A stretch of 64,000 nt of DNA from Escherichia phage vB_EcoM_KAW3E185: sequence record MK373782.1; one strand, given 5' to 3'. The stretch's first letter is position 1; every line of letters begins with the position of its first letter. A model generated the notes under the pieces. That model did not search any database. It was not told the origin of the DNA and saw nothing but the letters and a program-made list of their open reading frames with translations. Below, piece after piece: positions 2,428 to 40,275 of this stretch. The translations under genes and the position numbers were made by a program.

Positions 2428-2452
2428 AATATTCTCTTCAGTATATTCCTAG

Positions 2453-2503
2453 GGCACTATTACTAAAGACCATATAATCTATCATCTTATGTGTAATAGT
2501 GCC
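2453..2503. repeat. inverted repeat, about 11-bp arms (ggcactattac / gtaatagtgcc) with about 29-nt spacer
   Basis: Read directly in the intergenic region between the glycosyltransferase stop and rIIA.1 start; coordinates approximate. Confidence 0.45.
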
Positions 2504-2519
2504 TCAGGCTATTCAGGAT

Positions 2520-3620
2520 TTACGCTGTGAAGATTTTATCCCACATCGCAACAACTGCATCTCGGTTATACTTCTTCCATACTGCTTCAGCACGTTTAAC
2601 TCGAGCTTCGTATGTGTCAGTGAATTCTAATACAGCTTTTGTGTAAAGCGCAACTACTTCTTTCTTAGGAGTAGAGGAATCAATTTCTACACGCACAGTA
2701 TCTGGGTCGTATTCAAATGTCGCATGAGGATAATCCTTAAAAACTAACTGGATTACAGGGACACCTTTAGAGATGGCTTCAATAGAACTATTCTCTACCG
2801 TACCTGTGTCAGGACACGTATTAATAAGTGCTTTAGCTGTTTTAAGGCGTTCCATGATTTCACTGTGTGGAGCATCAATAATAACAGGATATTTAGCCGG
2901 TGGTGCCCATTTGCTTGGACAGTATCCTACACCATTTTCGCCTAGTGCTTTAATCGCTTCAAGAGCAACATCAGTACGACGCATTTTAGTGTCATAACGT
3001 TGTGCACTAATAATCAGATCAGTCGCCGGAAGAACTTCAGGTTTCTCATTCAAACAAATAACCGGATAATCTTCGGTTTCAAACAACGGATTTGCTCGCC
3101 AATAATCATAATCAATTTTGTCAGTCAGACCTGAAGTCATATAACAATATTTGCGTTCAAATTCACGGAAGGCTTTAGTAGGAGCATAACTCTTACCACC
3201 GTTCTTACGAATTTGAATAGTCTGGTCCCAAATTTGAACAATGCCACGAGATACTGGTTCAAATGGTGTTGCCATAAAATTCTTATGAACTTTAGAGAGA
3301 CCTGCGTCTTTAATTGCCTGAACGGTTAGTTTAGTCGGTTCCATAGTAACAACAAAATCGTATTCATGGATGCCGGCTAGTTCAACAATCTTACGAGCCA
3401 TAGTATAACTCATACCTAGACTGAATTTAGTCAGATGACCAACAGGATGATGATTAACCTTCCAATCACCAAATGTGTCATTATCAAAACCGATATAATC
3501 AATATCGGCACCGATGGACACAAGATATTTCAACACATTTAAATGTACTGCTTCAAGACCACCTTGTACACGTTCTGGGTTAAATGGGACTGCACGAGAT
3601 GGGATAAACATAACTTTCAT
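2520..3620 (-). CDS. putative GT-B fold (GT4-like) glycosyltransferase, 366 aa
   Basis: N-terminal MKVMFIPSRAVPF...GGLEAVHLNVLKYL and C-terminal ...TGTVENSSIEAISKGVPVI resemble GT4 donor-binding motifs; occupies the slot where T4 has gene 60/mobA. Confidence 0.5.
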   Translation of the reverse strand: MKVMFIPSRAVPFNPERVQGGLEAVHLNVLKYLVSIGADIDYIGFDNDTFGDWKVNHHPVGHLTKFSLGMSYTMARKIVELAGIHEYDFVVTMEPTKLTVQAIKDAGLSKVHKNFMATPFEPVSRGIVQIWDQTIQIRKNGGKSYAPTKAFREFERKYCYMTSGLTDKIDYDYWRANPLFETEDYPVICLNEKPEVLPATDLIISAQRYDTKMRRTDVALEAIKALGENGVGYCPSKWAPPAKYPVIIDAPHSEIMERLKTAKALINTCPDTGTVENSSIEAISKGVPVIQLVFKDYPHATFEYDPDTVRVEIDSSTPKKEVVALYTKAVLEFTDTYEARVKRAEAVWKKYNRDAVVAMWDKIFTA

Positions 3621-3640
3621 AATTAAGCCTTATTAAAATT

Positions 3641-3664
3641 AAAATGAAGCTCCCGAAGGAGCTT
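3641..3664 (-). terminator. hairpin aagctcc-UUCG-ggagctt followed by U-rich tract on minus transcript
   Basis: Perfect 7-bp stem with UUCG loop overlapping the gene 39 stop codon, followed by cattttaatttt; coordinates approximate. Confidence 0.5.
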
Positions 3665-5480
3665 AGGACATCCATTCTTTACGAAGTTCTGAATCATCAC
3701 CCATCAACATTTCAAAGAGTTCTTTCCAATTTTCAGGAAGTTTAACTACGTCGTACACAGGGTTCTGAATCATTTCACGATATTCTGACTTTTCAAGGGA
3801 GCCTAATCCCTTGATGTATCGAATACTATGCTTAGGCAGTGTATCTTTAACTTCTTCATACTCAGCTACAGTATAAAACCATTTTTGAGCTTTGCCAATT
3901 TGTGCAATAATTACAGGTGTTTTAACAAAGCGAATACGTCCTTGTTCAAACAATTCAGGCCAATTACTAAAGAAAGCAAGCAAAGCCGGATAGATACTTC
4001 CAAGACCGTCATGATCGGCATCAGTCATAATTGCAATATTACGATAGTTCGTATTCTCTGCCTTTTCACCAAGAATAAGACCCGTGATAGCACAGATATC
4101 AAAGAGCTCTTTGTTCTTCATCATATCAGCATATGACATACCCCAGCTATTCATCACCTTACCACGTAATGGGAATCCGCCGTGTAGTTCACGGTCACGA
4201 ACATCAATGAGATAACCAATTGCCGAATCACCTTCTGTTAAAAACAATGTCGTATCTGCATCTTTACCACATTGGTTAGCTTTAATATGCTTATGAACCT
4301 TAGCTTTAGTTGCCTTTTTAGCTGCTTTAGTTTCTGCAGCCTTTTCTGCTGCCAATTTACGAGCTAATGCTGCTTCAACAATAGGCATAATCAAGGCTTC
4401 GTTTTTAAGAAGTGCCTGAGCAATTTTCTTAGCATCTAATTGGATATGATTACGAATATCACCATACGTTGACGTTAAACGTTCTTTAGTCTGAGAATCA
4501 AAACGCATGTTGCTCATGTCTCTAATAAACATCAACATTGTGAGACATTCTTTAACACGAGCTTTAGTGACTTCAATACCCTTATATTTCTTTTTAATAC
4601 CAGGCAAAAGATGTTCACAGATATCATCCATTACACATTCAACATGATGACCACCATTTTTAGTATGGATGTTATTCACATAAGTTAAATGACGGAAGCC
4701 ATCTGGTGATGTTGTGAATGCTATAGAGACTTTATCATTTTCTTGAATGATGTTATCTTCGCCAAATTGTTTAGCAAATCGTTTAAAATTACCATCAACC
4801 TTTTTACCATTAAATGTGAACTTGATATCAGGATAAACGACTGCCAATGTTTGAAGTCTGTCTAAAGTAATATCTAAATAAATTTGAGATAAATTATGCT
4901 CTTCAAATGAAGAGAAATCAGGAGTGAAGATTACTTTAGTGCCTTTACATTTAGATTTCTTAGAAGACCATGATTTGTTTTCCATTCCGTTTGAACAGTT
5001 AACAGTGATTTCATTTTCGCCATCTGACGTGATGCCTGTAAACAACGTAGAGAAGATATTAGTTAAACTACTCCCGACGCCGTTCATACCACCAGTCTTG
5101 CGTTCAGAATCATCACCAAAGTTACCACCAGCCTTTGGAATAGTCCAGGCTGCTACAGGCCCAGGAATTTGTTCACCTGTTTGGTCGGTAACTAAACCTT
5201 GAGGAATACCACGTCCGTTATCTTCCACCGAAACTTGATTATTTTTAATTTGCACATCAATTTTATTTGCAAACTTAAATGATGTACGAATAGATTCATC
5301 AACCGAGTTGTCAATAATCTCATCGATTAATTTAACCAGACCAGGAACATATTCAACTTGTTGATATTTACCAAACAAAAAACGCTCATGTGCTTCTTTA
5401 GCAGAAGAACCAATATACATACCACTACGTTTCTTAATATGTTCTACATCTGACAATACCTTAATTTCATTTTTAATCAT
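3663..5480 (-). CDS. 39: DNA topoisomerase II large (ATPase) subunit, unsplit 605-aa form
   Basis: GHKL ATPase motifs (GLVKLIDEIIDNSVDE, GGMNGVGSS); length equals the fused gp39+gp60 form known from T2/T6-type phages. Confidence 0.9.
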   Translation of the reverse strand: MIKNEIKVLSDVEHIKKRSGMYIGSSAKEAHERFLFGKYQQVEYVPGLVKLIDEIIDNSVDESIRTSFKFANKIDVQIKNNQVSVEDNGRGIPQGLVTDQTGEQIPGPVAAWTIPKAGGNFGDDSERKTGGMNGVGSSLTNIFSTLFTGITSDGENEITVNCSNGMENKSWSSKKSKCKGTKVIFTPDFSSFEEHNLSQIYLDITLDRLQTLAVVYPDIKFTFNGKKVDGNFKRFAKQFGEDNIIQENDKVSIAFTTSPDGFRHLTYVNNIHTKNGGHHVECVMDDICEHLLPGIKKKYKGIEVTKARVKECLTMLMFIRDMSNMRFDSQTKERLTSTYGDIRNHIQLDAKKIAQALLKNEALIMPIVEAALARKLAAEKAAETKAAKKATKAKVHKHIKANQCGKDADTTLFLTEGDSAIGYLIDVRDRELHGGFPLRGKVMNSWGMSYADMMKNKELFDICAITGLILGEKAENTNYRNIAIMTDADHDGLGSIYPALLAFFSNWPELFEQGRIRFVKTPVIIAQIGKAQKWFYTVAEYEEVKDTLPKHSIRYIKGLGSLEKSEYREMIQNPVYDVVKLPENWKELFEMLMGDDSELRKEWMS

Positions 5481-5523
5481 GTTGTCTCCTCGTTATGAAG
5501 GTATTCTATCATCCGAAATCTAA

Positions 5524-5546
5524 AGCAAAAAGGGCCGAAGCCCTTA
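5524..5546 (-). terminator. hairpin gggc-UUCG-gccc followed by U5
   Basis: Stem-loop immediately after the stop of the 140-aa ORF, before gene 39 start; coordinates approximate. Confidence 0.5.
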
Positions 5547-22654: not shown

Positions 22655-23017
22655 TTAAAAGAATTTAAATTTTTTCTTGGTTCGTTCATTAAAAGCTTGT
22701 TGTACTTGCATTGTAACACATTTTTCAACATGTGGTGCAAGTTCTGCTTTTCTGTCCTGGTCAAGAACTGCAAAGTCCATTACGATTTTACCATCAACCC
22801 AGTCTAGTTTTGTAATATAGACTATATGATGGGAACCGTCTTCAAGTGTAATCAGAATCTCTTGAATGACATTTTCCATTGCTGAACGGACAATTTTAAG
22901 AGATTCATTAAACACTCGTTCTTTGCGAATGTCCTCCCCTTCCGAAGAAGGGGATTCATCAACGATTTCTAGATTTAAATCATCGAGATTATTCATCGAA
23001 ATCTTCCATTTCGTCAA
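22655..23017 (-). CDS. 40: gp40-position protein (120 aa)
   Basis: Position between 41 and uvsX and size as T4 gp40; no motif evidence. Confidence 0.5.
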   Translation of the reverse strand: MTKWKISMNNLDDLNLEIVDESPSSEGEDIRKERVFNESLKIVRSAMENVIQEILITLEDGSHHIVYITKLDWVDGKIVMDFAVLDQDRKAELAPHVEKCVTMQVQQAFNERTKKKFKFF

Positions 23018-24161
23018 GGTCGTTTTCTATATCTGCTGCAGACGGAGCATCAGAAGTTTTAACCGGAACTTTAGTTGTTGCTTTGCAATTAATAAGGTCG
23101 TTAACAGCGTCATCAACTTCTTTAATAGAAGAGATAGCACCTAGTTTATATTTAGTTTCAATTGCATCTCGGAAAGGTTTGTGTTTAAACAACGGACCCC
23201 AGAATTCTACACAATCAGTAGCTTTAGCACGCCACGATTTCTCTTCACGAATCATTTCACCTGTTTCTTCGTCAAGGAATTCACGAGCATACCAACCAGC
23301 TTTAGGCTTAACAACAAATCCAATTTCAGTTGCCATTTCTAACAAGCCACTGAATGGGTCGATACCACCATCAAAATTAACTGTGATTGGGAAAGTAGAT
23401 TTCTCTTTAACTGTACGAGATTTTTCTGCTTTCAGTGTGAAATCGTACCCAGTCAATTCTGTACCTTCTTTAACCTGACGTTTAGAGATAAAAAATACAG
23501 TGTTAGCAGAATAAAGAATACCTGTACCACCACCCATAATCTCTTTAGGATACAATCCGCCAATTTCCATTGCGGTATGGTTGATTGCAACACACGGAAT
23601 ATCTTTAATAGTCAGATACGGTGTCACAATACGGAAAAGAGATTTAAGTGCTTTAGCACGAGACATATCACCTACAACTTTCTCGTTCAACGCATCTTCG
23701 GTTTCTTTCTTAGATGCAGTATTACCGATTGAATCGATAAAGATAATAACTTTATCACCGCGTTCAATAGCGTCAAGCTGATTAGTCATATCAACTTTAA
23801 GTTGTTCGACAGATTGAATCGGAGTATGAACTACACGGTCTAAATCAACACCCATCGAACGGAAGTAAGATTCTGAAGCACCGAATTCTGAGTCATAAAA
23901 CAAACAAATTGCATCTTTATATTTCTTCATATATGCTGCAACCATGGTCAGCCCAAACAATGTTTTAAAGTGTTTAGAAGGAGCAGCAAAAATAGTTAAG
24001 CCTGATTGCAACCCGGCATTCAGTGCACCACCTAGTGCAATATTCAACATCGGAATACGAGTAGGGACTTCATCACGATTATTAAACAGCTTAGACTTAG
24101 TCAAGTCTGCAGTCATTTTAGAAGTAGAAGCTTTAATCAGACGAGATTTTAAATCAGACAT
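22989..24161 (-). CDS. uvsX: UvsX recombinase (RecA-like), 390 aa
   Basis: N-terminus MSDLKSRLIKASTSK and RecA core motifs match T4 UvsX as I recall it. Confidence 0.9.
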   Translation of the reverse strand: MSDLKSRLIKASTSKMTADLTKSKLFNNRDEVPTRIPMLNIALGGALNAGLQSGLTIFAAPSKHFKTLFGLTMVAAYMKKYKDAICLFYDSEFGASESYFRSMGVDLDRVVHTPIQSVEQLKVDMTNQLDAIERGDKVIIFIDSIGNTASKKETEDALNEKVVGDMSRAKALKSLFRIVTPYLTIKDIPCVAINHTAMEIGGLYPKEIMGGGTGILYSANTVFFISKRQVKEGTELTGYDFTLKAEKSRTVKEKSTFPITVNFDGGIDPFSGLLEMATEIGFVVKPKAGWYAREFLDEETGEMIREEKSWRAKATDCVEFWGPLFKHKPFRDAIETKYKLGAISSIKEVDDAVNDLINCKATTKVPVKTSDAPSAADIENDLDEMEDFDE

Positions 24162-24259: not shown

Positions 24260-24808
24260 TTAACGAGCCCATTTGATAATTTCTGTAATCAAATAATTAC
24301 GTTCGCTTGCATTAAATCCTATAACTTTGTTAGCACCATCATGATTAAGTAATTGATACGTTTGGATTTTGTTATGAATTGCAAACTCTTCAAAATGTGA
24401 AATGACTGTATTAAAACCGAATGAAGACAAAGTAATAAGGTCGTCTTCAAAACTTTCAGTCATTTCGTTACGTGTTAAAATAATTGTGAACACATCATGG
24501 TTTTGGCAAAGACGAATATAATCCTGTTCATAAACGTCAAGAACCGAGTCCGCATCTTGTCGAATACGTCCATAAACCCAGTTACTAATATATCCACGGT
24601 CTAACAGATAAATCTTAGTAGGGTCTAAATAATTCAACATCGTTTCGAAACAACCAACTTCATTTCGAGACTTAACATCGAAACGTCCATCAACTGTTCG
24701 TTTAGGGAAATCAATCTTTACATATCTTTCACTAATTTCCATTATGTCATTAATGAAAGTTGTTTTACCAGCATTATCCGGGCCATCTACTAAAATAATT
24801 TTAGCCAT
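24260..24808 (-). CDS. P-loop nucleoside/nucleotide kinase-like protein (182 aa)
   Basis: Walker A GPDNAGKTT and LLDRGY motif typical of dNK/TMPK-family kinases; sits in the T4 beta-gt slot. Confidence 0.5.
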   Translation of the reverse strand: MAKIILVDGPDNAGKTTFINDIMEISERYVKIDFPKRTVDGRFDVKSRNEVGCFETMLNYLDPTKIYLLDRGYISNWVYGRIRQDADSVLDVYEQDYIRLCQNHDVFTIILTRNEMTESFEDDLITLSSFGFNTVISHFEEFAIHNKIQTYQLLNHDGANKVIGFNASERNYLITEIIKWAR

Positions 24809-24809
24809 T

Positions 24810-25709
24810 TTATTCCTCGATTACGACATCTTCATATTTAGGTATATTATACGGTGAAGAAATTAAAGCATTAAAATAGATGAACTCACCAAGACCTGGA
24901 TGAAATACTTCTTCAGGATTTTCGAAATATTGAATCTTCGGACGTCCTTTAAGAATTTGATAGTACTCAGTTTTAGTTGGTTTAAAAATTCGAATTAGCG
25001 CTTCTTCAGGATACTTATTTCTGTCAAAGCTATTATTTGGATCGGTTATATAAAGCGGTTGACCTAATTGAATTGCGCATTCAACAACTTGTTCAAAACG
25101 ATAGCATGGGTCACTAATTCGAAATGGATGAAAAATACCATCTAGATGAATAGGAGCCAAATCACCTACAAGACGCTGCATGATGGAAGGACGTATAACT
25201 TTCTGCGTTACGATAATCTTATTACCATCTGCACCAGCGTTAACCAGCACTTCTTTTTGACGTTCATTCAACACAGTAGTTTGAAGTGAACGATTAACCG
25301 ACAACATATCGGTTTTTAAGAATTCGTCAATATAAAAACGTGGTTTATTAGGGTCTGCAGTGATATTGAAATTGAATTCCACATCAAAAGCGCCGTCATA
25401 TCCAGTGATATCTGTGATTAGAAAATCACAATCATAATAAGCAATTAATGAATCAACCACAAATTCATTTTCAGACCAGAAATATTTACGAGTGTTATAC
25501 GCGTTATCTTTATACCATAATGGAACAAACTTAAATTCTGGAAAAAGACGTTCGCATTCTTTAATATCAGATGCATTACGTGGATATGTAATCACATCAC
25601 CCGGATTAGCACGGTGCAAATGAAGTTGGAAGTTGCCATCCTTAAGGATAGCATACTGTCCAGTTTCATAAGACCTCATACTCAAGATAGGTACGCGGAA
25701 AATAGCCAT
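24810..25709 (-). CDS. hypothetical protein (299 aa), candidate DNA-modification enzyme
   Basis: Occupies the beta-gt position between uvsX and 42; stop overlaps the gene 42 start; no recognisable motif. Confidence 0.5.
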   Translation of the reverse strand: MAIFRVPILSMRSYETGQYAILKDGNFQLHLHRANPGDVITYPRNASDIKECERLFPEFKFVPLWYKDNAYNTRKYFWSENEFVVDSLIAYYDCDFLITDITGYDGAFDVEFNFNITADPNKPRFYIDEFLKTDMLSVNRSLQTTVLNERQKEVLVNAGADGNKIIVTQKVIRPSIMQRLVGDLAPIHLDGIFHPFRISDPCYRFEQVVECAIQLGQPLYITDPNNSFDRNKYPEEALIRIFKPTKTEYYQILKGRPKIQYFENPEEVFHPGLGEFIYFNALISSPYNIPKYEDVVIEE

Positions 25710-26425
25710 TAGTCAAGGAATCCTTTAACATAATCAAAATCACGTTCAAACACATGGGCACTTACCATGGTATGAGTATAATCACCAACTTCTACACCGC
25801 ATTCGTTAGCGATATAATGAAGTAATTTTCCTTGGAGATAAAAATCCAACTGCATAACAACAGCGCAGTTCTGAGAACGCATATGACAGTGGGTATAAAG
25901 CTTACCATCACGGATATAATAAGTCACTGAGTCAGTACATGGATATTCAAGCGTTTCGTCTGAATCAAGCAAAGCCTGATCAGAACTTTCTAGAATTTGG
26001 AACACAACTCTTCGAGAGTTAGGCTTCTCTTTAAGTTCTTTTAGAAGAGCTGGTAATTGGGCCGCAATGCGAGGACCATAGAAAGTGTTGAAGTTCGCCG
26101 GCAAAACATCTGATTTTGGTTTAGAAATAAATTTAGCGACACTAGGATATGCCTTAAACGCTTCTTCTGCGTTGGTACCACCAGAAATCATAAACTTCCA
26201 GAAGTCTTCGGCGTATTCATAAGAGATGCGGTTAATACGCGGGTCGGTCATTTTGAATGATGATGGAGTGTCAACAACTACTGTCATAGACCCAATTTCA
26301 TTACAACGTCCAATACGAGAATCAGTTACGAATTCCGGGTTTTCTAAAATTTCACGATTGACTGCTTTAAATGCGGTTTGAAAATCTGCGGCTTTGATAT
26401 ATTTCATTGTGTTATGTTTTCCCAT
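25709..26425 (-). CDS. 42: ThyA-family deoxypyrimidylate hydroxymethylase (gp42-like, divergent), 238 aa
   Basis: ThyA-fold motifs PNSRR..., YPCTDSVTYYIRDGKL...HMRSQNCAVV, HVFERDF; gene 42 position and size. Confidence 0.7.
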   Translation of the reverse strand: MGKHNTMKYIKAADFQTAFKAVNREILENPEFVTDSRIGRCNEIGSMTVVVDTPSSFKMTDPRINRISYEYAEDFWKFMISGGTNAEEAFKAYPSVAKFISKPKSDVLPANFNTFYGPRIAAQLPALLKELKEKPNSRRVVFQILESSDQALLDSDETLEYPCTDSVTYYIRDGKLYTHCHMRSQNCAVVMQLDFYLQGKLLHYIANECGVEVGDYTHTMVSAHVFERDFDYVKGFLD

Positions 26426-26467
26426 GTTTACCTCAATACAATTTATTATATACTCAATTCGTAAAGC

Positions 26468-26707
26468 TTATTTGAATTTCTTGACAATGTTGATATAACG
26501 TAAAGCTTCAGCACCGATACTTCCAAGAACACTATGAAGAAATGCATCAGCGTAGTATTCCAATTGAACAGGTTCTTTAATCACTTTAGCCGCTTTAGTT
26601 TCAAACAGGCCCATCAGGGCCCTTTTAAGAATTTGTTCGTTAGTGTTCAGTTTCATAGTCAAAATCTCTTCATTAAGTTGGTGGTTAAAAGTTTTTCTAG
26701 AAATCAT
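26468..26707 (-). CDS. small hypothetical protein (79 aa)
   Basis: ORF on gene strand, overlaps next gene by 4 nt. Confidence 0.45.
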   Translation of the reverse strand: MISRKTFNHQLNEEILTMKLNTNEQILKRALMGLFETKAAKVIKEPVQLEYYADAFLHSVLGSIGAEALRYINIVKKFK

Positions 26708-27876
26708 TCCGGGTACCTCAAAGCGTCATCAGAGTTAGTTATATCAATAATAGATATAGAGTTTTCTGCTAACCCGTTTTTAGATAATTGACGTTTATAA
26801 TATCTTTCACAATATGTACACGTCGTCCCGCAGATTTCATTAGCACAATCGAAATCTGGATGTCTGAACCACCTTTTTTCTAAAAAGCCATCTAACAAAG
26901 AGGTTTCAATATTTACTGTATGTGAAAACTCAGTTTCGTTTTCAAGAGTGAAAATAGTCTCTAAAGGCTTCCACAGTTCTAACAAATTACCTTCAAACTT
27001 TTCAGAAGCGTATGCTTCAAGAACTTTCAAAATGTAGTCTGTGCTACCTGTACGTCCTGAAACTTTGAATTGAGTGATACCAATATCATTATAAAGTTTC
27101 AAATCTTGAGGACGAACAAAACGAGTTCTCAACCAGTTAAATGGGTCTGTATCACGAGCTTTAATACAGTGCTGCATAGGATATCCGTTTAAGGATTTAG
27201 CATCATCAGCTGTAACATCAGTACTATGGAAAATATAGCAAGAGTCACGATAGCTACAATGTGTTGTATACCCTTTACCAGCATTAGAACAGAACTCATT
27301 TACAAGAACTTCAAATATTATATTGTTCTTATTGCAAAACTCTGCTGCACGCTTCAGGAAAGAAACTGAACGGTTCTTATGAATTCCGCAACAGACCTTT
27401 TTGATGTTATATTGGTCATGCAAGTATTTGATTTGAGTTACAGCATCGACATGTAGAATTGTTGAAACTTCAATCTCAATATCTTTATTGACTTCACGAA
27501 CAATTTCCATAACAACAGGGTTAGCGATAGTAATACGCCATACGCCTATTGACCAAAGATACTGAACATAATCCTGAATAGCTTTCTTCTTCCACTCAAC
27601 TAGTTCTCTTTTTGAACCAGGATTTATCGTGTTGAGTGTATAGTTAAAGCAAATACCTAATTCGTTACAACGTTTAACGTAGTCTTCTAACATTTTTTTG
27701 TCAACGTCAGGAAGCCTAAAATCAGGTCTGGCTGCTACAAAAGCCATTTCTCTTGTAGAGCCGTATACTTCATTTATCAAGCTATTAGGATAAGTTTTAT
27801 TGAGCTCTACGATTTTATCAAGAAGAGCTAAATCAAAATTCGTTCCGATTTTAAAAGTATTCATTTTTTTTTGCAT
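26704..27876 (-). CDS. Cys-rich enzyme-like protein of unknown function (390 aa)
   Basis: Clustered Cys (CSYRDSC, CANEICGTTCTYC); part of the cassette between genes 42 and 43. Confidence 0.5.
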   Translation of the reverse strand: MQKKMNTFKIGTNFDLALLDKIVELNKTYPNSLINEVYGSTREMAFVAARPDFRLPDVDKKMLEDYVKRCNELGICFNYTLNTINPGSKRELVEWKKKAIQDYVQYLWSIGVWRITIANPVVMEIVREVNKDIEIEVSTILHVDAVTQIKYLHDQYNIKKVCCGIHKNRSVSFLKRAAEFCNKNNIIFEVLVNEFCSNAGKGYTTHCSYRDSCYIFHSTDVTADDAKSLNGYPMQHCIKARDTDPFNWLRTRFVRPQDLKLYNDIGITQFKVSGRTGSTDYILKVLEAYASEKFEGNLLELWKPLETIFTLENETEFSHTVNIETSLLDGFLEKRWFRHPDFDCANEICGTTCTYCERYYKRQLSKNGLAENSISIIDITNSDDALRYPE

Positions 27877-27922
27877 CTCACGTTAATTGATGCGATGGTT
27901 TTTGCAGGTCTTACTTAAATTA

Positions 27923-28324
27923 TTATAGATTCGGTTTATATGATTTAAATGTTTCGAATTCGCCTTTATTCATAAGAGCTTTGAATTCGTCAGGACGCAT
28001 AGCTTTGTCGTCGATAATCCAATCATATACTGGTTTATGTGTTAGCAAATTATGGTACTTCAAGCCAATGTTTGCCAAGTTCTGAATCAGACTTGGGAGA
28101 ATGTCAATTGCTATACGACCAGGACCTACTGACTTCATACCACGAGCAGTGTAAAGCGTTATGGTATGCCCTGCATCATACAGGGCATTAATGGCAGACA
28201 CCATTTCGACGTCTGGTTTGAAGTTCACGTAATCACGATTGTTATTCCATTCCGTGATGCAATCATCGACATCAAAACAAAGATTAAGCATGTTTTCTAC
28301 ACGGTGCATTAGATTCGTTCCCAT
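27923..28324 (-). CDS. small DxD-motif protein, possibly HAD-like phosphatase (133 aa)
   Basis: N-terminal LCFDVDDCIT resembles HAD motif I; assignment tentative because the protein is short for a HAD core. Confidence 0.35.
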   Translation of the reverse strand: MGTNLMHRVENMLNLCFDVDDCITEWNNNRDYVNFKPDVEMVSAINALYDAGHTITLYTARGMKSVGPGRIAIDILPSLIQNLANIGLKYHNLLTHKPVYDWIIDDKAMRPDEFKALMNKGEFETFKSYKPNL

Positions 28325-29994
28325 TGATGAGTGATATCGCCACCGATTGGACGATAAGAAACACCAGTTTCTTTATCAGTTAGTACCCATTTACCAGGAT
28401 TTTTTGTAATCAGAGTAGCCGTTACAGGTTCTGCTACGTCATAACTAATAGAGCCGTCCTGAAGTACACGGCCCATGTTACGTAATTGCTTAGTCAGAAG
28501 TTCCATACCTTTATAATATGCGGCTACCGCTTTAAGTGGATTATTCTTGAAATAACCACCTAATGCAATCCAGATAATTGCCACTGCCAAATGATGATAC
28601 TCGTTAAACGAACTCATCTTTCCATATTTGTAAACTAATGGATTGATGTTAATAGTCACATTACAAGTTGTTTCATCAATAGTAAACTGTCCCCAGGTCG
28701 GATTAGCATTGAATTCATCATAACCTGAAACAGCGTAAAGCACTTTAGCTTCATCATACAATTTTGGCCCGTAAATCTTGGTTTCGCCAAAATATCCACG
28801 AGGGTCGATAAACTTGACTTCGCCGTTATCAGTAATCATAGTATTACTGAAGTTCGGGTCGCCATGAATAACAGAGTACTGTCCCTGAGAACGGTTATGA
28901 TAACGAATAAGGTGTTCTAAAGCTTGTTTCAGCATTGGCTTCAGACGTCCAATCTTAGTGTAGTTCACATGTGTGATTTTACCAAATGAATCAATCAATG
29001 GTTGAATGCTTTCACAACGATCAATAACTTTCGTATAGAATTCTTTAGTGAAATCACGACGAACAGTTTCAGGACTTACAAAATAAGTGTCTGTGCTGAA
29101 TTTCAGTGCATCTAAAATTGCATCAACAATTTGTGGACGAGCAAGACTTGATTTGGATTTAATATATTCAAATGCCGGCTTACCTTTAATGCGTTCCATT
29201 TCAAAGTTATTTTCATTAACAGAAACTAACTGAGGAACTGAATCCGATTTCACTTTAAGATACCATGAAATCTCATCTTTCTGAAGAGCTCGACCCTGTT
29301 CGGTTAATGCGAATTTAGTTACAGTTTCTTCACCAATTTCAACTGCATTAAAACTACGATTAAGTTCACGAACTTCATGAGCCTTTTCAAGTTTAGGCAT
29401 ATCACCTAAATCAATTAGATTCATAAGCTCTGATTTATTGAATGCGCTGCCGTAAAGGAATTCTACGAAATCACGTCCTTTGCAGTATTCATGAATTTCC
29501 TCATCAGTAGAACCCATGTAGAATTCCCAGTCTTTGAACTGGTAAATTCCCACAACATTACCGCCTGTTTCACCTACATTAGTGATATTTTCACCATCGA
29601 AATTATACCGACATTCATCACCCTTAACATAGATTGCGTTAACATTCCAAGACCATGAACCAAAATCGGGAATAATATCACACCAGTTAACAATTACGTT
29701 ATGGCCGTCTAAATCTTTGTGTAATTTAGCAAGAGCATAAGCAGAACCGTATGCTTCATCAACTGTACGAATAGTCACATTGAACCCTTCTTGCTCACAA
29801 TAAGCTCGAACAGTTTCAGCAAATTTTGAATGAACTACTACGATAATTTCATCTGCGCCAAGGTCAGAATAAATTGTATACAAATTGCTCAGAATAGTGT
29901 CTTGTTTATAGTTAACAAGCACCTTAGGAATATGATGCGTTATTGGATATAAACGAGTTGCCAGTCCAGCACCAAGAATAACAGCTTTTTTCAT
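28309..29994 (-). CDS. bifunctional sugar-1-phosphate nucleotidylyltransferase / APH-fold sugar kinase (561 aa)
   Basis: N-terminal KKAVILGAGLATRLYPIT...PKVL nucleotidyltransferase signature; C-terminal HGDPNFSN...FIDPRG kinase motifs. Confidence 0.6.
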   Translation of the reverse strand: MKKAVILGAGLATRLYPITHHIPKVLVNYKQDTILSNLYTIYSDLGADEIIVVVHSKFAETVRAYCEQEGFNVTIRTVDEAYGSAYALAKLHKDLDGHNVIVNWCDIIPDFGSWSWNVNAIYVKGDECRYNFDGENITNVGETGGNVVGIYQFKDWEFYMGSTDEEIHEYCKGRDFVEFLYGSAFNKSELMNLIDLGDMPKLEKAHEVRELNRSFNAVEIGEETVTKFALTEQGRALQKDEISWYLKVKSDSVPQLVSVNENNFEMERIKGKPAFEYIKSKSSLARPQIVDAILDALKFSTDTYFVSPETVRRDFTKEFYTKVIDRCESIQPLIDSFGKITHVNYTKIGRLKPMLKQALEHLIRYHNRSQGQYSVIHGDPNFSNTMITDNGEVKFIDPRGYFGETKIYGPKLYDEAKVLYAVSGYDEFNANPTWGQFTIDETTCNVTININPLVYKYGKMSSFNEYHHLAVAIIWIALGGYFKNNPLKAVAAYYKGMELLTKQLRNMGRVLQDGSISYDVAEPVTATLITKNPGKWVLTDKETGVSYRPIGGDITHQWERI

Positions 29995-30035
29995 GTTGAA
30001 GTCCTCATTGGTAAGTAGGAGTATTGTACACTATT

Positions 30036-30179
30036 CTAGTTAAAGCATTCATACTTTGCTTGTAGTCCAATCATAATCCATCCAATTACAAGTGTTGGAA
30101 TCATTACCGGAGCCGTTAAGCTCCAGTAGATAGTCATGACAAGCATCAATAGTAAAAGTCCTATTGTTATTGCTTTCAT
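30036..30179 (-). CDS. small hydrophobic protein (47 aa)
   Basis: Not in ORF track; hand translation MKAITIGLLLLMLVMTIYWSLTAPVMIPTLVIGWIMIGLQAKYECFN; ATG overlaps the SIS gene stop as ATGA. Confidence 0.35.
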   Translation of the reverse strand: MKAITIGLLLLMLVMTIYWSLTAPVMIPTLVIGWIMIGLQAKYECFN

Positions 30180-30811
30180 TGTTCGCCTCGTAACATGGCA
30201 CCTAGTGCACCGCCTGGATGGAACTTAAGGAAGTCATTAGAGGTAAATCCACGTTCAGACGAAAGGTTGATAGCAAACGTATCGATAAGCGCTAACAACA
30301 ATGTAGTGGACATAGTCGGAGCCAGAGAATTCTCATCAACCTCTACCGCGATGCCGGTGCAGAACGTATAATCAAAAAGAGCTTCGTATTCTTGTGGAAT
30401 GTCAGGGTTACAATGTAACAGAATCTGTTTAACCTGAGGACGAATCATACGAAGATGTTTAGCAACACCTATCATTTCTTCAGTCTTACCAGAACGACTG
30501 ATGTGGACTAATACATCATTAGGTGCAATAAATCCTGCGTCACCATGAGAATAATGCCCGGTATTCAAATACATGCTAGGAATACCTAGTGAAGCAAAAG
30601 TCTCGGAAGCTTTAGTTGCGATATTAGCATTCTTACCAACACCTGTAATAATTACCCGGCTTTCATAATTACTAAGTCCAGGGCGTCGAAGAGTTTCTAG
30701 AATAGCATTATAACGAGCAGGGTTTTGACTAATTACTTTAGCCATAGTGGCAAGAGATGAAGCTTGTTTTACGATTGCGTCAATAGCGATAGTGATTGGT
30801 GTAGTTTTCAT
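30176..30811 (-). CDS. SIS-domain sugar-phosphate isomerase, KdsD-like (arabinose-5-phosphate isomerase-like), 211 aa
   Basis: ITGVGKNANIATK...HGDAGF...HISRSGKTEE...FHPGGALG parallel KdsD/GutQ SIS motifs; no CBS domains. Confidence 0.65.
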   Translation of the reverse strand: MKTTPITIAIDAIVKQASSLATMAKVISQNPARYNAILETLRRPGLSNYESRVIITGVGKNANIATKASETFASLGIPSMYLNTGHYSHGDAGFIAPNDVLVHISRSGKTEEMIGVAKHLRMIRPQVKQILLHCNPDIPQEYEALFDYTFCTGIAVEVDENSLAPTMSTTLLLALIDTFAINLSSERGFTSNDFLKFHPGGALGAMLRGEQ

Positions 30812-30851: not shown

Positions 30852-33563
30852 TCAAAAATCAAACATATCGAACAGAGATGCTTTCTTCTCGTAATCGAGT
30901 TTAGCTGCTGATGTGAATCCTTCAAGTGGTTTAATAAATGTCTTCTCAAGGAGAACAGTGTAGTCCATCCAATGAAGTACATCGTCTTTAATTAAATCTG
31001 TGATTTCAGTACCAGAAGGCCATGCGATACATTTATCACCGAATGGGTTTCCTTCACGTAAAGGCAGAACATATACTTTTTCACCTTCTACAACTTGTGG
31101 TGCATCAATATTACCTTTGATAGCTCGGTTATATGTCAGAATTCCACGAATATGGAACGGACATTTAGGACCAGGGAATCCACCTACGTCATATTTAGCA
31201 ATGTTATTCGCAGAAGATACCGACGCGATGCTAATATAATTCAATTGACGGAATTCTTTTTCAAACTCTTTAAAATATTCTTGTAATGATTCTTCACCTT
31301 CTTGAAGCATACGACGAATACATTCTTTAAGAGCTTTCTGTACTGCTTTAGGAGTCGAAGATTTCTGAGTCTCTAGACCCATGATTTTGAGTTTAGGCTC
31401 AGCGTAACGAGTACCTTCCATATCCCACACGTTTAATGCATAACGTTTCTTACCAGTCCAAAATCCGCCAATACCTTTAGAACCAAGCGGAGGCCCAGCG
31501 ATAGCTTCTCGGTCCATGAACATTAAGTGTTGTTTATTGTTCATGTATTCACACATTTCACGGAAACCTCTATCAATAGCAGGTTCCATACGTTCACGAG
31601 CGAACTTATCTAAGAAGTCTACCCAATGGTTGGTATCACGGAATTTAGATTCACCAACCTTATCGATAATTTTATCAGCAGATACGTAAATAGAGTCTGT
31701 ATCACCATAAAGAACGAAAGCTTCACCTTCTGTACCACAAACTTCATTCAGGTATTCATTAACTTTACGTTCAATCCACTGTAAAGCCATTTGCCCGAAT
31801 GTTGTGATTGCAGTAGCATTACGCAAATCATAATAACGGAACCAAACGTTTCCAAGTGCACCATAAAGTGAGTTGATAAGCAATTTACGGTTAATTTGGG
31901 CAGTCATACCTGCAACTTCAGTACGTTGAGCTCTAAACAACATTTCATTAAGAGATTTAGCAGACAACTTTTTAATCTTTTCTTTAATCTCGTCAGTGAA
32001 GTCAAAACGATAATCAACATCTAATGGTTCGTCAACAGAAAGATTAGGATTATGCAATGCCTCTTTAATTATTTCACCATTACGTTGAGCTGCAAGCATA
32101 TAACCTTTATGTTCTTTACGTTGATTAAAGACCTTAGTGATTTCAGTTGGAACTACACCATCACGGTCTTTATAATACATCATGCCGTTAGGAGAACAAC
32201 TGTACACATCTGAAGGACGTTCAGCGATTGCGTTAATATAATCATGCAATGGAGCTACTTTAAACGTTCCTGCTATTGTTTCCGGGCTAATATTCACTTG
32301 GCGAATAATACTTGGATACAGAGATGTAAGGTCGAAACTCATTACATATTTGTATCGATTTGGAATAGGTTCCTTAACAAAAGCGCCAGGATAAGGTTGA
32401 ACCGGGTGAGAACGACCTTGTGGAATCACCTTGTTTTGTTCTTTAAGGCTATTAAAAATAATAGCATCCCAAGTTTTAATTGGACTGAACACAGATTGAA
32501 TCTGAATTTTAGCATAATAACCCATGTCCAAACTCAAGTTGATGAACTGACGCTTAGCATCAATTTGCAATACACGATACACGTCGATAATGTTATAAGA
32601 AATATATCGTTGGTGATTGCTTTCACGAAGCTTAGAAATAGGGCCGTCATATTTCAGTTTACCAACGTTCAATTCAAATTCTGAAATGTAATCCAGAGAA
32701 TACGACGGTTGGTTCGTGAAAGAGAACTTTTTGTAAAGGTCAATGTAATCAAGAACAGAGATACCGAACAATGTAATGATTTCACGAGAACCATACATGT
32801 TTTCGATAACTTTAACACGAGTTTTACGATGTGGTGATAAACGTTTCGCAGTAGATTCGCCAAAAATATTCTTGATTCGGTTATACACATATGGAATATC
32901 AAATGACTCAACGTTCCATCCAGTCAAAATGACAGGAGTTTTCTGTTGCCAGAAGTTGAGATATTCCATCAACAATTCTTTTTCGTTATCGAACGGCATA
33001 TAAATGATTTTATCGATAATTTCGGATGGAACTTCATCACCACCTTGTTCTTGAAGCTTAGCCGCAATTTCGATAGACCATTCTTCTACATTACCATATG
33101 GAGAATTCAATAGATCAAATACGTAGAACCTGTCGTCAATTGAGTCATAATGGGTGATAGCATCAATCGGATGTTTTGCTTGTGACGGCTCAGGGAACCC
33201 ATCCGGAGATGTTACTTCGATGTCGAAGTTAGCCACACGAATTTTTGTATGGTCGTATTTGATTTCATAGTTATAAGTGTCAGACAAATACGCCAATTTG
33301 AAATCGTCCATGCCAAGTGCTTCAAGTCCGATATCTTCCATGCGTTTAATCCATTGGGAGGCATCACGCATATTAGCGAACAACTTACGAGTACACGGCT
33401 TACCGTAGATATCGAAATATTTCGTAGCCTGACTTTCTGGACAATGAGCAAACAGTGATGGTTTATATTCTACTTCACGAGTACGTTCACGGCCATTAGA
33501 ATCGATGTAACGTTCAAAAATTGAATCACCAATCTGTTCAACCGTTAAGTAAAATTCTTTCAT
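30852..33563 (-). CDS. 43: DNA polymerase gp43 (family B), 903 aa
   Basis: N-terminus MKEFYLTVEQIGDSIFERYIDSNGRERTREVEYKPSLFAHCPESQ matches RB69 gp43 as I recall it; exo and pol motifs present. Confidence 0.95.
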   Translation of the reverse strand: MKEFYLTVEQIGDSIFERYIDSNGRERTREVEYKPSLFAHCPESQATKYFDIYGKPCTRKLFANMRDASQWIKRMEDIGLEALGMDDFKLAYLSDTYNYEIKYDHTKIRVANFDIEVTSPDGFPEPSQAKHPIDAITHYDSIDDRFYVFDLLNSPYGNVEEWSIEIAAKLQEQGGDEVPSEIIDKIIYMPFDNEKELLMEYLNFWQQKTPVILTGWNVESFDIPYVYNRIKNIFGESTAKRLSPHRKTRVKVIENMYGSREIITLFGISVLDYIDLYKKFSFTNQPSYSLDYISEFELNVGKLKYDGPISKLRESNHQRYISYNIIDVYRVLQIDAKRQFINLSLDMGYYAKIQIQSVFSPIKTWDAIIFNSLKEQNKVIPQGRSHPVQPYPGAFVKEPIPNRYKYVMSFDLTSLYPSIIRQVNISPETIAGTFKVAPLHDYINAIAERPSDVYSCSPNGMMYYKDRDGVVPTEITKVFNQRKEHKGYMLAAQRNGEIIKEALHNPNLSVDEPLDVDYRFDFTDEIKEKIKKLSAKSLNEMLFRAQRTEVAGMTAQINRKLLINSLYGALGNVWFRYYDLRNATAITTFGQMALQWIERKVNEYLNEVCGTEGEAFVLYGDTDSIYVSADKIIDKVGESKFRDTNHWVDFLDKFARERMEPAIDRGFREMCEYMNNKQHLMFMDREAIAGPPLGSKGIGGFWTGKKRYALNVWDMEGTRYAEPKLKIMGLETQKSSTPKAVQKALKECIRRMLQEGEESLQEYFKEFEKEFRQLNYISIASVSSANNIAKYDVGGFPGPKCPFHIRGILTYNRAIKGNIDAPQVVEGEKVYVLPLREGNPFGDKCIAWPSGTEITDLIKDDVLHWMDYTVLLEKTFIKPLEGFTSAAKLDYEKKASLFDMFDF

Positions 33564-40204: not shown

Positions 40205-40250
40205 ATTATTTCCTCATTAGTTAATTCATTTTATCATCCGTTTATAAAGC

Positions 40251-40275
40251 AAAAAAGGAACTCCGAAGAGTTCCT
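40251..40275 (-). terminator. terminator hairpin aggaactc-UUCG-gagttcct + U5
   Basis: 8-bp stem, UUCG loop, U-run on minus transcript; coordinates approximate. Confidence 0.55.

What the first reader, a model, noticed from the sequence alone, without database searches (positions are those of the whole stretch)
2520..3620. Stand-alone GT-B glycosyltransferase between rIIA.1 and gene 39, far from the sugar cassette
A 366-aa ORF with GT4-like N- and C-terminal motifs sits where T4 carries gene 60 and mobA. No alpha-gt or beta-gt homologue is present elsewhere in the window, so this is the best candidate for the DNA hydroxymethylcytosine glycosyl (arabinosyl) transferase. It is flanked by an inverted repeat on one side and a terminator on the other, consistent with a self-contained inserted module.
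Basis: partly seen in the sequence, partly recalled or inferred. Interest (0 to 1): 0.75.

Follow-up and report, generated by a model that had tools for sequence, protein, structure and literature searches.

The report
Known phage DNA arabinose-adding enzyme gene
This gene is real and encodes a sugar-transferring enzyme, but it is the already described RB69 ORF003c, which most likely adds the second arabinose to the phage's sugar-coated cytosines, while a different enzyme elsewhere in the window adds the first.

Summary
The ORF at 2520-3620 (minus strand, 366 aa) is real. It lies between rIIA.1 and the fused topoisomerase gene 39. It is 361/366 identical to RB69 ORF003c, which has the same coordinates in RB69. 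It is 98% identical to the phage HY126 glycosyltransferase solved with UDP (PDB 9IQZ/9IR0). The GT-B call and the flanking hairpins are confirmed.

- The window holds a second GT-B protein (24810-25709). It lies directly downstream of the thymidylate-synthase homologue, where T4 carries beta-gt.
- That cassette enzyme occurs in every arabinosylating lineage examined (348 phage records). The 366-aa family occurs only in Mosigvirus (one copy), Acinetobacter phages (two copies) and one Tegunavirus record.
- Copy number follows reported chain length: none in Thanatos (mono), one in RB69, NP, Bas46 and Bas47 (di), two in DLP3 (tri).
- The base is 5-hydroxycytosine, not hydroxymethylcytosine. The window's ThyA homologue carries the published D169N signature.
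- The gene sits at T4's 54-bp rIIA.1-60 spacer, not where gene 60 and mobA lie. Nothing marks it as a mobile insertion.

The best reading is a UDP-arabinofuranose-dependent, chain-extending DNA arabinosyltransferase. Already known; low interest.

The parts
2520..3620 (-). 366-aa GT-B glycosyltransferase gene (the RB69 ORF003c/gp3 gene); proposed second, chain-extending DNA arabinofuranosyltransferase
   Evidence: ORF. 361/366 identical to RB69 ORF003c at the same coordinates. PHROG 8302, E 1.7e-221. 98% identical to PDB 9IQZ/9IR0, the HY126 glycosyltransferase with UDP. 42% and 40% identical to DLP3 gp77 and gp76.
3628..3632 (-). Shine-Dalgarno-like TAAGG, 7 nt upstream of the ATG
   Evidence: Direct reading of the minus-strand sequence.
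3647..3664 (-). Terminator-like hairpin (7-bp stem, UUCG loop, U-rich tail) overlapping the gene 39 stop codon, about 25 nt upstream of the transferase start
   Evidence: The fold is -10.5 kcal/mol with z -1.2, so it is not exceptional. JS98 has a hairpin of different sequence at the same position after its gene 39.
2448..2508 (-). Long stem-loop (16-nt arms, 29-nt loop with an inner hairpin) between the transferase stop and the rIIA.1 start; no U-tract; function unknown
   Evidence: I1. (-28.5 kcal/mol, z -5.3). Nearly invariant in RB69, Bas46 and JK45, with no compensatory changes.
5503..5527 (-). MotA-box-type middle-promoter-like site upstream of gene 39; the nearest candidate promoter from which the transferase could be co-transcribed by read-through
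   Evidence: 14 such sites in the window against 1.9 expected. No promoter-like site lies between the hairpin and the ATG. Co-transcription is inferred.
24810..25709 (-). Partner gene: 299-aa cassette GT-B protein (the gene split as RB69 ORF046c/047c); proposed first arabinosyltransferase, acting on 5-hydroxycytosine
   Evidence: AF2 pLDDT 94.5. Foldseek hits to GT-B proteins: UDP-GlcNAc 2-epimerases, MshA and 9ir0_A. Present in 348 phage records across many genera. 1-nt overlap with the ThyA homologue.
25709..26425 (-). Partner gene: ThyA-family 5-hydroxy-dCMP synthase homologue, which makes the acceptor base
   Evidence: Pfam Thymidylat_synt. 99% identical to RB69 gp48. N at the E. coli ThyA D169 position. 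Signature and activity from PMC13326640.
28309..29994 (-). Partner gene: bifunctional nucleotidyltransferase/kinase (the gene split as RB69 ORF052c/053c), proposed UDP-arabinofuranose synthesis
   Evidence: Pfam NTP_transferase plus weak kinase-family hits. Role taken from PMC13326640.
30176..30811 (-). Partner gene: SIS-domain arabinose-5-phosphate isomerase homologue (RB69 ORF055c)
   Evidence: Pfam SIS. Synteny with RB69. Role taken from PMC13326640.

Best explanation
The gene encodes a UDP-binding GT-B glycosyltransferase that acts on phage DNA as the second, chain-extending arabinofuranosyltransferase.

Proposed sequence of events:
1. The ThyA homologue (25709-26425) makes 5-hydroxy-dCMP, which replaces dCMP in phage DNA.
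2. The cassette GT-B enzyme (24810-25709) attaches the first alpha-D-arabinofuranose to O5 of the base.
3. The 366-aa enzyme transfers a second D-arabinofuranose from UDP-arabinofuranose, made by the cassette enzymes, to O3 of the first sugar. The product is beta-D-Araf-(1->3)-alpha-D-Araf-5-hydroxy-deoxycytidine.

The thicker sugar coat is expected to widen protection against DNA-targeting host defences.

Shown, in papers or here: the di-arabinosyl structure in RB69; UDP bound to a 98%-identical protein; arabinose transfer to already arabinosylated DNA by the 40-42%-identical DLP3 pair; and the gene distribution.

Inferred: that this particular enzyme performs step two, and that it is transcribed with gene 39.
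For: - Identity: 99% to RB69 ORF003c and 98% to the HY126 glycosyltransferase crystallised with UDP.
- Homologue activity: DLP3 gp77 and gp76 are 42% and 40% identical over the full length. Together they add a third arabinose to RB69 DNA from UDP-Araf in vitro (PMC13326640).
- Distribution: the cassette GT occurs in 348 records, including Dhakavirus and Klebsiella, Serratia, Yersinia, Proteus, Shewanella and Acinetobacter phages. The 366-aa family occurs in 211 records: Mosigvirus with one copy, Acinetobacter phages with two, and one Tegunavirus record.
- Copy number follows reported chain length. Thanatos has none and is mono-arabinosylated (PMC13326640). RB69, NP, Bas46 and Bas47 have one and carry mono- plus di-arabinose. 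DLP3 has two and is tri-arabinosylated.
- Position: the cassette GT overlaps the ThyA homologue by 1 nt and sits where T4 has beta-gt next to gene 42. This fits its role as the base-proximal enzyme.
- Family size: only 16 hits at E<=1e-3 among 1.84 billion representatives for the 366-aa family, against more than 138 clusters for the cassette GT. This fits an accessory add-on.
- Literature: PMC13326640 (Table 1) and PMC13390438 make the same assignment.
Against: - No experiment that I could read assigns step two to this protein. PMC13326640 states it as a hypothesis.
- In that paper the individual DLP3 enzymes were inactive on 5hoC-DNA, so the first step is not demonstrated either.
- The DLP3 homologues worked only as a pair. 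A single-copy enzyme may therefore behave differently or need a partner.
- He et al. 2026 (HY126) and Mahler et al. 2025 (Aat genes, Bas46 deletion) were not available and may assign the roles differently.
- My own AF2 model of the protein is poor (pLDDT 60). The fold evidence rests mainly on the PDB entry titles and sequence identity.
- The co-occurrence argument is correlative and rests on few phages with measured chain lengths.
Confidence: 0.75

Rival explanations
1. First reader's reading (also Thomas et al. 2018): this is the base-proximal transferase, which attaches arabinose directly to the modified cytosine. The cassette GT-B protein then does something else.
For: It was the original proposal for RB69 ORF003c (PMC6024577), and Bas46 annotates the gene 'putative hmC-arabinosyltransferase'. 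It is a UDP-binding GT-B. The first step has not been reconstituted with the cassette enzyme.
Against: Arabinosylating phages such as Thanatos-1, Serratia LC53, JS98 and the Klebsiella and Yersinia phages have the cassette GT but no homologue of this protein at tblastn E<=1e-3. It therefore cannot be the universal first enzyme. The base is 5hoC, not hmC. The cassette GT is translationally linked to the base-making enzyme.
Confidence: 0.1
2. The protein is an obligate partner rather than an independent step-two enzyme. It would work only in complex with the cassette transferase or another phage protein, and the complex would carry out both transfers.
For: DLP3 gp76 and gp77 were active only together, and no single enzyme was active alone (PMC13326640). 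The PDB example chain for this sequence is labelled H (9iqz_H), which hints at several copies in the crystal.
Against: Mosigvirus has only one member of this family, so the DLP3-type paralogue pair cannot form. The gene is 21 kb from the cassette and is not translationally coupled to any pathway gene. There is no interaction evidence.
Confidence: 0.1
3. The enzyme glycosylates something other than DNA, for example a host envelope glycan or a protein, and is unrelated to DNA modification.
For: The closest folds are lipid, LPS and small-molecule GT4 enzymes: PimA, WaaG, BshA.
Against: The family is found only in phages that also carry the 5hoC arabinosylation cassette. In Acinetobacter phages it sits inside that cassette. 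Those homologues act on DNA in vitro.
Confidence: 0.03

Closest known systems
RB69 ORF003c / gp3 (NP_861693)
   Same: Same gene: 361/366 identical, same coordinates 2520-3620, same neighbours.
   Different: Five substitutions only. Its published role changed from 'the ara-hmC transferase' (2018) to 'beta-arabinosyltransferase 2' acting on arabinosyl-5hoC (2026).
Phage HY126 glycosyltransferase, PDB 9IQZ (apo) and 9IR0 (with UDP)
   Same: 97.5-98% identical over the full length. Solved GT-B structure with a bound UDP.
   Different: A few substitutions. The associated paper (He et al., Nat Chem Biol 2026) could not be read, so its assigned activity is unknown to me.
Acinetobacter phage DLP3 gp77 and gp76
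   Same: Full-length homologues at 42% and 40% identity, with the same conserved motifs. Shown to add arabinofuranose from UDP-Araf to already arabinosylated DNA.
   Different: They are two paralogues, 58% identical to each other. They lie inside the cassette next to the kinase and the first GT. They act only as a pair and make the third, 1->5 linkage. Here there is a single copy 21 kb from the cassette, proposed to make the second, 1->3 linkage.
T4 alpha-gt (GT72) and beta-gt (GT63) DNA glucosyltransferases
   Same: Works like them: a GT-B enzyme using a UDP-sugar to glycosylate modified cytosines in phage DNA.
   Different: No detectable profile similarity to beta-gt; alpha-gt was not compared here, and similarity to it is reported only at HHpred level in PMC6024577. 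The sugar is arabinofuranose, not glucose. The base is 5hoC, not hmC. The likely acceptor is a sugar hydroxyl, not the base. beta-gt's genomic position is held by the other GT.
T2/T6 beta-glucosyl-HMC-alpha-glucosyltransferase (second-sugar enzyme that makes gentiobiosyl-hmC)
   Same: Functional analogy from established T-even biology: a second transferase extends a sugar already attached to DNA and is present only in some phages.
   Different: Different sugar, linkage and base. Homology was not tested here.
Bacterial GT4 GT-B enzymes (PimA, BshA, WaaG, MshA)
   Same: Best structural matches after the HY126 entries. Shared N-terminal GG-x-E motif, an Arg/Lys pair after the first C-domain strand, and the E-A-x3-G-x-P-V helix.
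   Different: 12-14% identity. No Pfam GT4-type hit for any family member. The motif is E276-x4-E281 rather than the canonical E-x7-E. The acceptor is DNA-linked sugar.

Membership tests
RB69 ORF003c / PHROG 8302 family (accessory DNA arabinosyltransferases of 5hoC-arabinosylating Straboviridae) | Full-length sequence homology to RB69 ORF003c | tested here: met
   99% identity. PHROG 8302, E 1.7e-221, residues 1-366 of 366.
RB69 ORF003c / PHROG 8302 family (accessory DNA arabinosyltransferases of 5hoC-arabinosylating Straboviridae) | GT-B fold with a UDP-binding site | tested here: met
   98% identical to PDB 9IR0, 'phage HY126 glycosyltransferase with UDP'. My own AF2 model is weak (pLDDT 60) but hits GT-B enzymes.
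RB69 ORF003c / PHROG 8302 family (accessory DNA arabinosyltransferases of 5hoC-arabinosylating Straboviridae) | Co-occurrence with the 5hoC arabinosylation cassette (5hodCMP synthase, first GT, UDP-Ara genes) | tested here: met
   The cassette lies at 24260-30811 in the window. The D169N signature is present. All lineages holding the family also hold the cassette GT.
RB69 ORF003c / PHROG 8302 family (accessory DNA arabinosyltransferases of 5hoC-arabinosylating Straboviridae) | Transfer of arabinofuranose from UDP-Araf to arabinosylated DNA | not testable with these tools
   Shown only for the DLP3 gp76+gp77 pair (PMC13326640).
CAZy GT4 / Pfam Glycos_transf_1 and Glyco_transf_4 | Significant match to the family sequence models | tested here: not met
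   No Pfam family at E<=10 for the protein or for any of its five homologues.
CAZy GT4 / Pfam Glycos_transf_1 and Glyco_transf_4 | GT-B fold closest to GT4 structures | tested here: met
   After the HY126 entries, Foldseek ranks PimA, BshA, LmbT and WaaG at E 3e-7 to 1e-5. The model quality is low, so this is supportive only.
CAZy GT4 / Pfam Glycos_transf_1 and Glyco_transf_4 | Canonical E-x7-E motif in the C-terminal domain | tested here: not met
   The family-invariant glutamates are E276 and E281 (E-x4-E). The position 8 residues before E281 is G273. The motif was placed by reading, not by structural superposition.
CAZy GT4 / Pfam Glycos_transf_1 and Glyco_transf_4 | Retaining mechanism | not testable with these tools
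   The proposed product is a beta linkage. The anomeric configuration of the natural donor is not known to me.
T4-type hmC DNA glucosyltransferases (alpha-gt, beta-gt) | Sequence homology to alpha-gt or beta-gt | tested here: not met
   hhalign of the family profile against T4 beta-gt gives probability 0.2%. alpha-gt was not tested here; only HHpred-level similarity is reported in PMC6024577.
T4-type hmC DNA glucosyltransferases (alpha-gt, beta-gt) | Acceptor is 5-hydroxymethylcytosine in DNA | tested here: not met
   The window's ThyA homologue is 99% identical to RB69 gp48 (5hodCMP synthase) and has N at the D169 position, unlike T4 gp42. RB69 DNA carries 5hoC.
Self-contained mobile or inserted gene module | Own promoter, flanking direct repeats or target duplication, mobility gene, or foreign composition | tested here: not met
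   No minus-strand promoter-like site between the hairpin and the ATG. Only short chance-level direct repeats. GC 39.5% against 37% for the window, and GC3 0.267, equal to gene 39. No endonuclease ORF.

The most novel reading that the evidence does not exclude
RB69 DNA carries an alpha-linked first and a beta-linked second arabinofuranose (PMC13326640), and the genome encodes one UDP-arabinose pathway. If both transferases use the same donor, one of the two GT-B enzymes must retain and the other invert the anomeric configuration. The least conventional reading still open is that this GT4-like enzyme is the inverting one. It has E-x4-E in place of E-x7-E. It would then be a retaining-family scaffold converted to inversion and to a DNA-borne sugar acceptor. 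In that reading it also acts as a portable 'chain-length upgrade' gene that moved out of the cassette, where Acinetobacter phages keep it, into the variable rIIA-39 spacer.
Probability: 0.25. Interest if true: 0.4.

Novelty: already known. Interest (0 to 1): 0.15.

Why it matters
The number of sugars on phage cytosines affects which restriction enzymes, CRISPR systems and DNA glycosylases can attack the DNA. An accessory chain-extending transferase is therefore a determinant of host range and of how easily the phage can be engineered. This gene has already been identified, annotated and crystallised, and placed in the pathway by others. The useful output here is a corrected annotation for this window: second transferase, 5-hydroxycytosine, and a first transferase at 24810-25709.

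Tried and rejected
- Pfam scans of the protein and its five homologues found nothing.
- Profile-profile comparisons gave no signal: the 366-aa family against the cassette GT family, and both against T4 beta-gt. BLASTP between the two window transferases gave no signal either.
- The AF2 model of the target, built from a 6-sequence alignment, was poor (pLDDT 60, N-terminal half mostly below 50). I therefore relied on the 98%-identical PDB entries.
- He et al. 2026 (Nat Chem Biol, HY126) and Mahler et al. 2025 (Cell Host Microbe) are not held. Searches for PDB codes, Afh gene names and ara-hC terms gave only noise or citing papers.
- I tried to locate the single Tegunavirus record with a diverged homologue by querying with three remote representatives. 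It was never listed.
- Python BLAST against the JS98 and T4 loci failed because those loci were not exported to /data. I used protein comparison and DNA alignment instead.
- I considered whether the hairpins delimit a mobile insertion and rejected it (see membership test).
- I considered whether the 2448-2508 stem-loop is an intrinsic terminator. There is no U-tract, so I left its function open.

Full report
**What is there**

The window begins like the genome of a Mosigvirus (an RB69-like T-even phage).
- rIIA lies at 1-2214, rIIA.1 at 2227-2427, a 366-aa ORF at 2520-3620, and a 605-aa fused topoisomerase II large-subunit gene at 3663-5480. All are on the minus strand.
- RB69 itself has ORF003c at exactly 2520-3620. 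The two proteins are 361/366 identical.
- 163 phage records carry this stretch at 90% nucleotide identity or more.
- One of them, Bas46, already annotates the gene 'putative hmC-arabinosyltransferase'.

The ORF is clearly a real gene.
- It has a TAAGG ribosome-binding site 7 nt before the ATG.
- It matches PHROG 8302 end to end.
- It is conserved at 95% amino-acid identity or more in about 155 phage records.

**Fold**

- No Pfam model matches the protein or its homologues.
- A profile of the family matches one solved protein at E 5e-196: PDB 9IQZ/9IR0. Foldseek lists these entries as 'phage HY126 glycosyltransferase' and '...with UDP', at 98% identity.
- My AF2 model is weak (pLDDT 60). After those entries it still hits GT4-type GT-B enzymes such as PimA, BshA, LmbT and WaaG.
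- The glutamates are spaced E-x4-E, not the canonical E-x7-E.

The observation 'GT-B, GT4-like' therefore holds.

**Flanks**

- The inverted repeat at 2448-2508 is real and folds strongly. It has no U-tract, and among close relatives it shows no compensatory changes.
- The hairpin at 3664-3647 matches the terminator pattern and overlaps the gene 39 stop codon. It is not energetically exceptional.
- That hairpin leaves only about 25 nt before the ATG, and there is no promoter-like site in between. The gene probably depends on read-through from gene 39, which has a MotA-box-type site at 5503-5527. This is an inference.
- Base composition matches the neighbours, and there are no meaningful flanking direct repeats.
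- JS98 (Dhakavirus) carries two unrelated small ORFs at the same site, also separated by hairpins.
- T4 has only a 54-bp spacer here. T4 gp60 corresponds to residues 493-605 of the window's gene 39.

The site is a variable spacer. The gene is not 'where T4 has gene 60 and mobA', and nothing marks it as a self-contained insertion.

**A second transferase in the window**

- The sugar cassette lies between uvsX (22989-24161) and DNA polymerase (30852-33563).
- Within it, the 299-aa ORF at 24810-25709 has no Pfam hit. It models at pLDDT 94.5 and matches GT-B proteins: UDP-GlcNAc 2-epimerases, MshA, and also 9ir0_A.
- It overlaps the ThyA homologue by one base.
- It occupies the position that beta-gt holds next to gene 42 in T4.
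- In RB69's reference sequence this gene is split into ORF046c and ORF047c. PMC13326640 attributes the split to a sequencing error.

**Which enzyme does which step**

| Phage or lineage | Cassette GT (299 aa) | Copies of the 366-aa family | Reported arabinose chain |
|---|---|---|---|
| Shewanella phage Thanatos | present | 0 | mono (PMC13326640) |
| RB69, NP, Bas46, Bas47 (Mosigvirus) | present | 1 | mono plus di |
| Acinetobacter phage DLP3 | present | 2 | tri |

- tblastn finds the cassette GT in 348 phage records. These span Mosigvirus and Dhakavirus and phages of Klebsiella, Edwardsiella, Enterobacter, Yersinia, Pectobacterium, Serratia, Proteus, Providencia, Shewanella and Acinetobacter.
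- The 366-aa family is found in only 211 records: Mosigvirus-type phages with one copy, 55 Acinetobacter phages with two copies, and one Tegunavirus record.
- In DLP3 the two copies (gp77 and gp76) sit inside the cassette. They are 42% and 40% identical to the window protein.
- Together, gp76 and gp77 add a third arabinose from UDP-Araf to RB69 DNA in vitro (PMC13326640).

This fits a chain-extending role. PMC13326640 (Table 1: 'beta-arabinosyltransferase 2') and PMC13390438 propose the same, as a hypothesis.

**The base**

- RB69 DNA carries beta-D-Araf-(1->3)-alpha-D-Araf linked by an ether to 5-hydroxy-deoxycytidine. The earlier 'ara-hmC' assignment is described as erroneous.
- The window's ThyA homologue is 99% identical to RB69 gp48. 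It has N at the position of E. coli ThyA D169, the published signature of 5hodCMP synthases. T4 gp42 has D there.
Its local motif agrees with the residue numbers given in PMC13326640.

**Verdict**

The finding is a correct sighting of a known gene, with an outdated functional label.
- I give about 0.75 to the step-two arabinofuranosyltransferase role.
- I give about 0.1 to the first-step role and about 0.1 to an obligate-partner variant.
- A non-DNA acceptor is very unlikely.

Novelty: already known. Interest: low.

Noticed in passing
window 24810-25709 (-): The cassette GT-B gene is an intact 299-aa ORF here, whereas the RB69 reference record splits it into ORF046c and ORF047c. Likewise the 561-aa nucleotidyltransferase/kinase gene (28309-29994) is intact here but split in RB69 (ORF052c/053c).
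   Followed up: partly
window 25709-26425 (-): The ThyA-family gene carries Asn at the E. coli ThyA D169 position (RSQN, against RSCD in ThyA and RSND in T4 gp42). That is the published signature of 5-hydroxy-dCMP synthases. Its stop overlaps the start of the downstream GT by 1 nt, which suggests translational coupling.
   Followed up: partly
window, 14 sites, e.g. 5503-5527, 24846-24870, 30023-30047, 40228-40251 (mostly minus strand): The T4 MotA-box middle-promoter pattern TGCTTYA-N11-13-TANNNT occurs 14 times against 1.9 expected from shuffles. Sites lie just upstream of gene 39 and inside or upstream of cassette genes.
   Followed up: no
L005 (Shigella phage JK45, MK962757.1 2520-4123): JK45 has a 503-bp tandem duplication comprising the last 411 nt of the transferase gene plus the 92-bp downstream spacer with its stem-loop. 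The result is a full gene followed by a 136-aa C-terminal fragment ORF. It could be real or an assembly artefact. The record is also labelled Tequatrovirus despite its Mosigvirus-like content.
   Followed up: partly
Escherichia phage LH01, PP434429.1 2523-3619 (hit H67): The transferase matches in two pieces over 1097 nt instead of 1098 and is annotated as two hypothetical proteins. This is an apparent 1-nt frameshift. If real, the phage would be a natural knockout for testing chain length.
   Followed up: no
L002 (JS98, NC_010105.1 2437-3024): The 588-bp 'gap' between rIIA.1 and gene 39 in JS98 holds two unannotated minus-strand ORFs (107 aa at 2423-2746, 53 aa at 2821-2982). Both have RBS-like sequences, and a strong terminator-like hairpin (GGGCC-GCAA-GGCCC-TTTT) lies between them.
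   Followed up: no
window 2448-2508 (-): The long stem-loop immediately upstream of rIIA.1 is much more stable than shuffled controls (z -5.3) but is not a canonical terminator. Its role (mRNA processing or stability, or control of rIIA.1 translation) is unexplained.
   Followed up: partly
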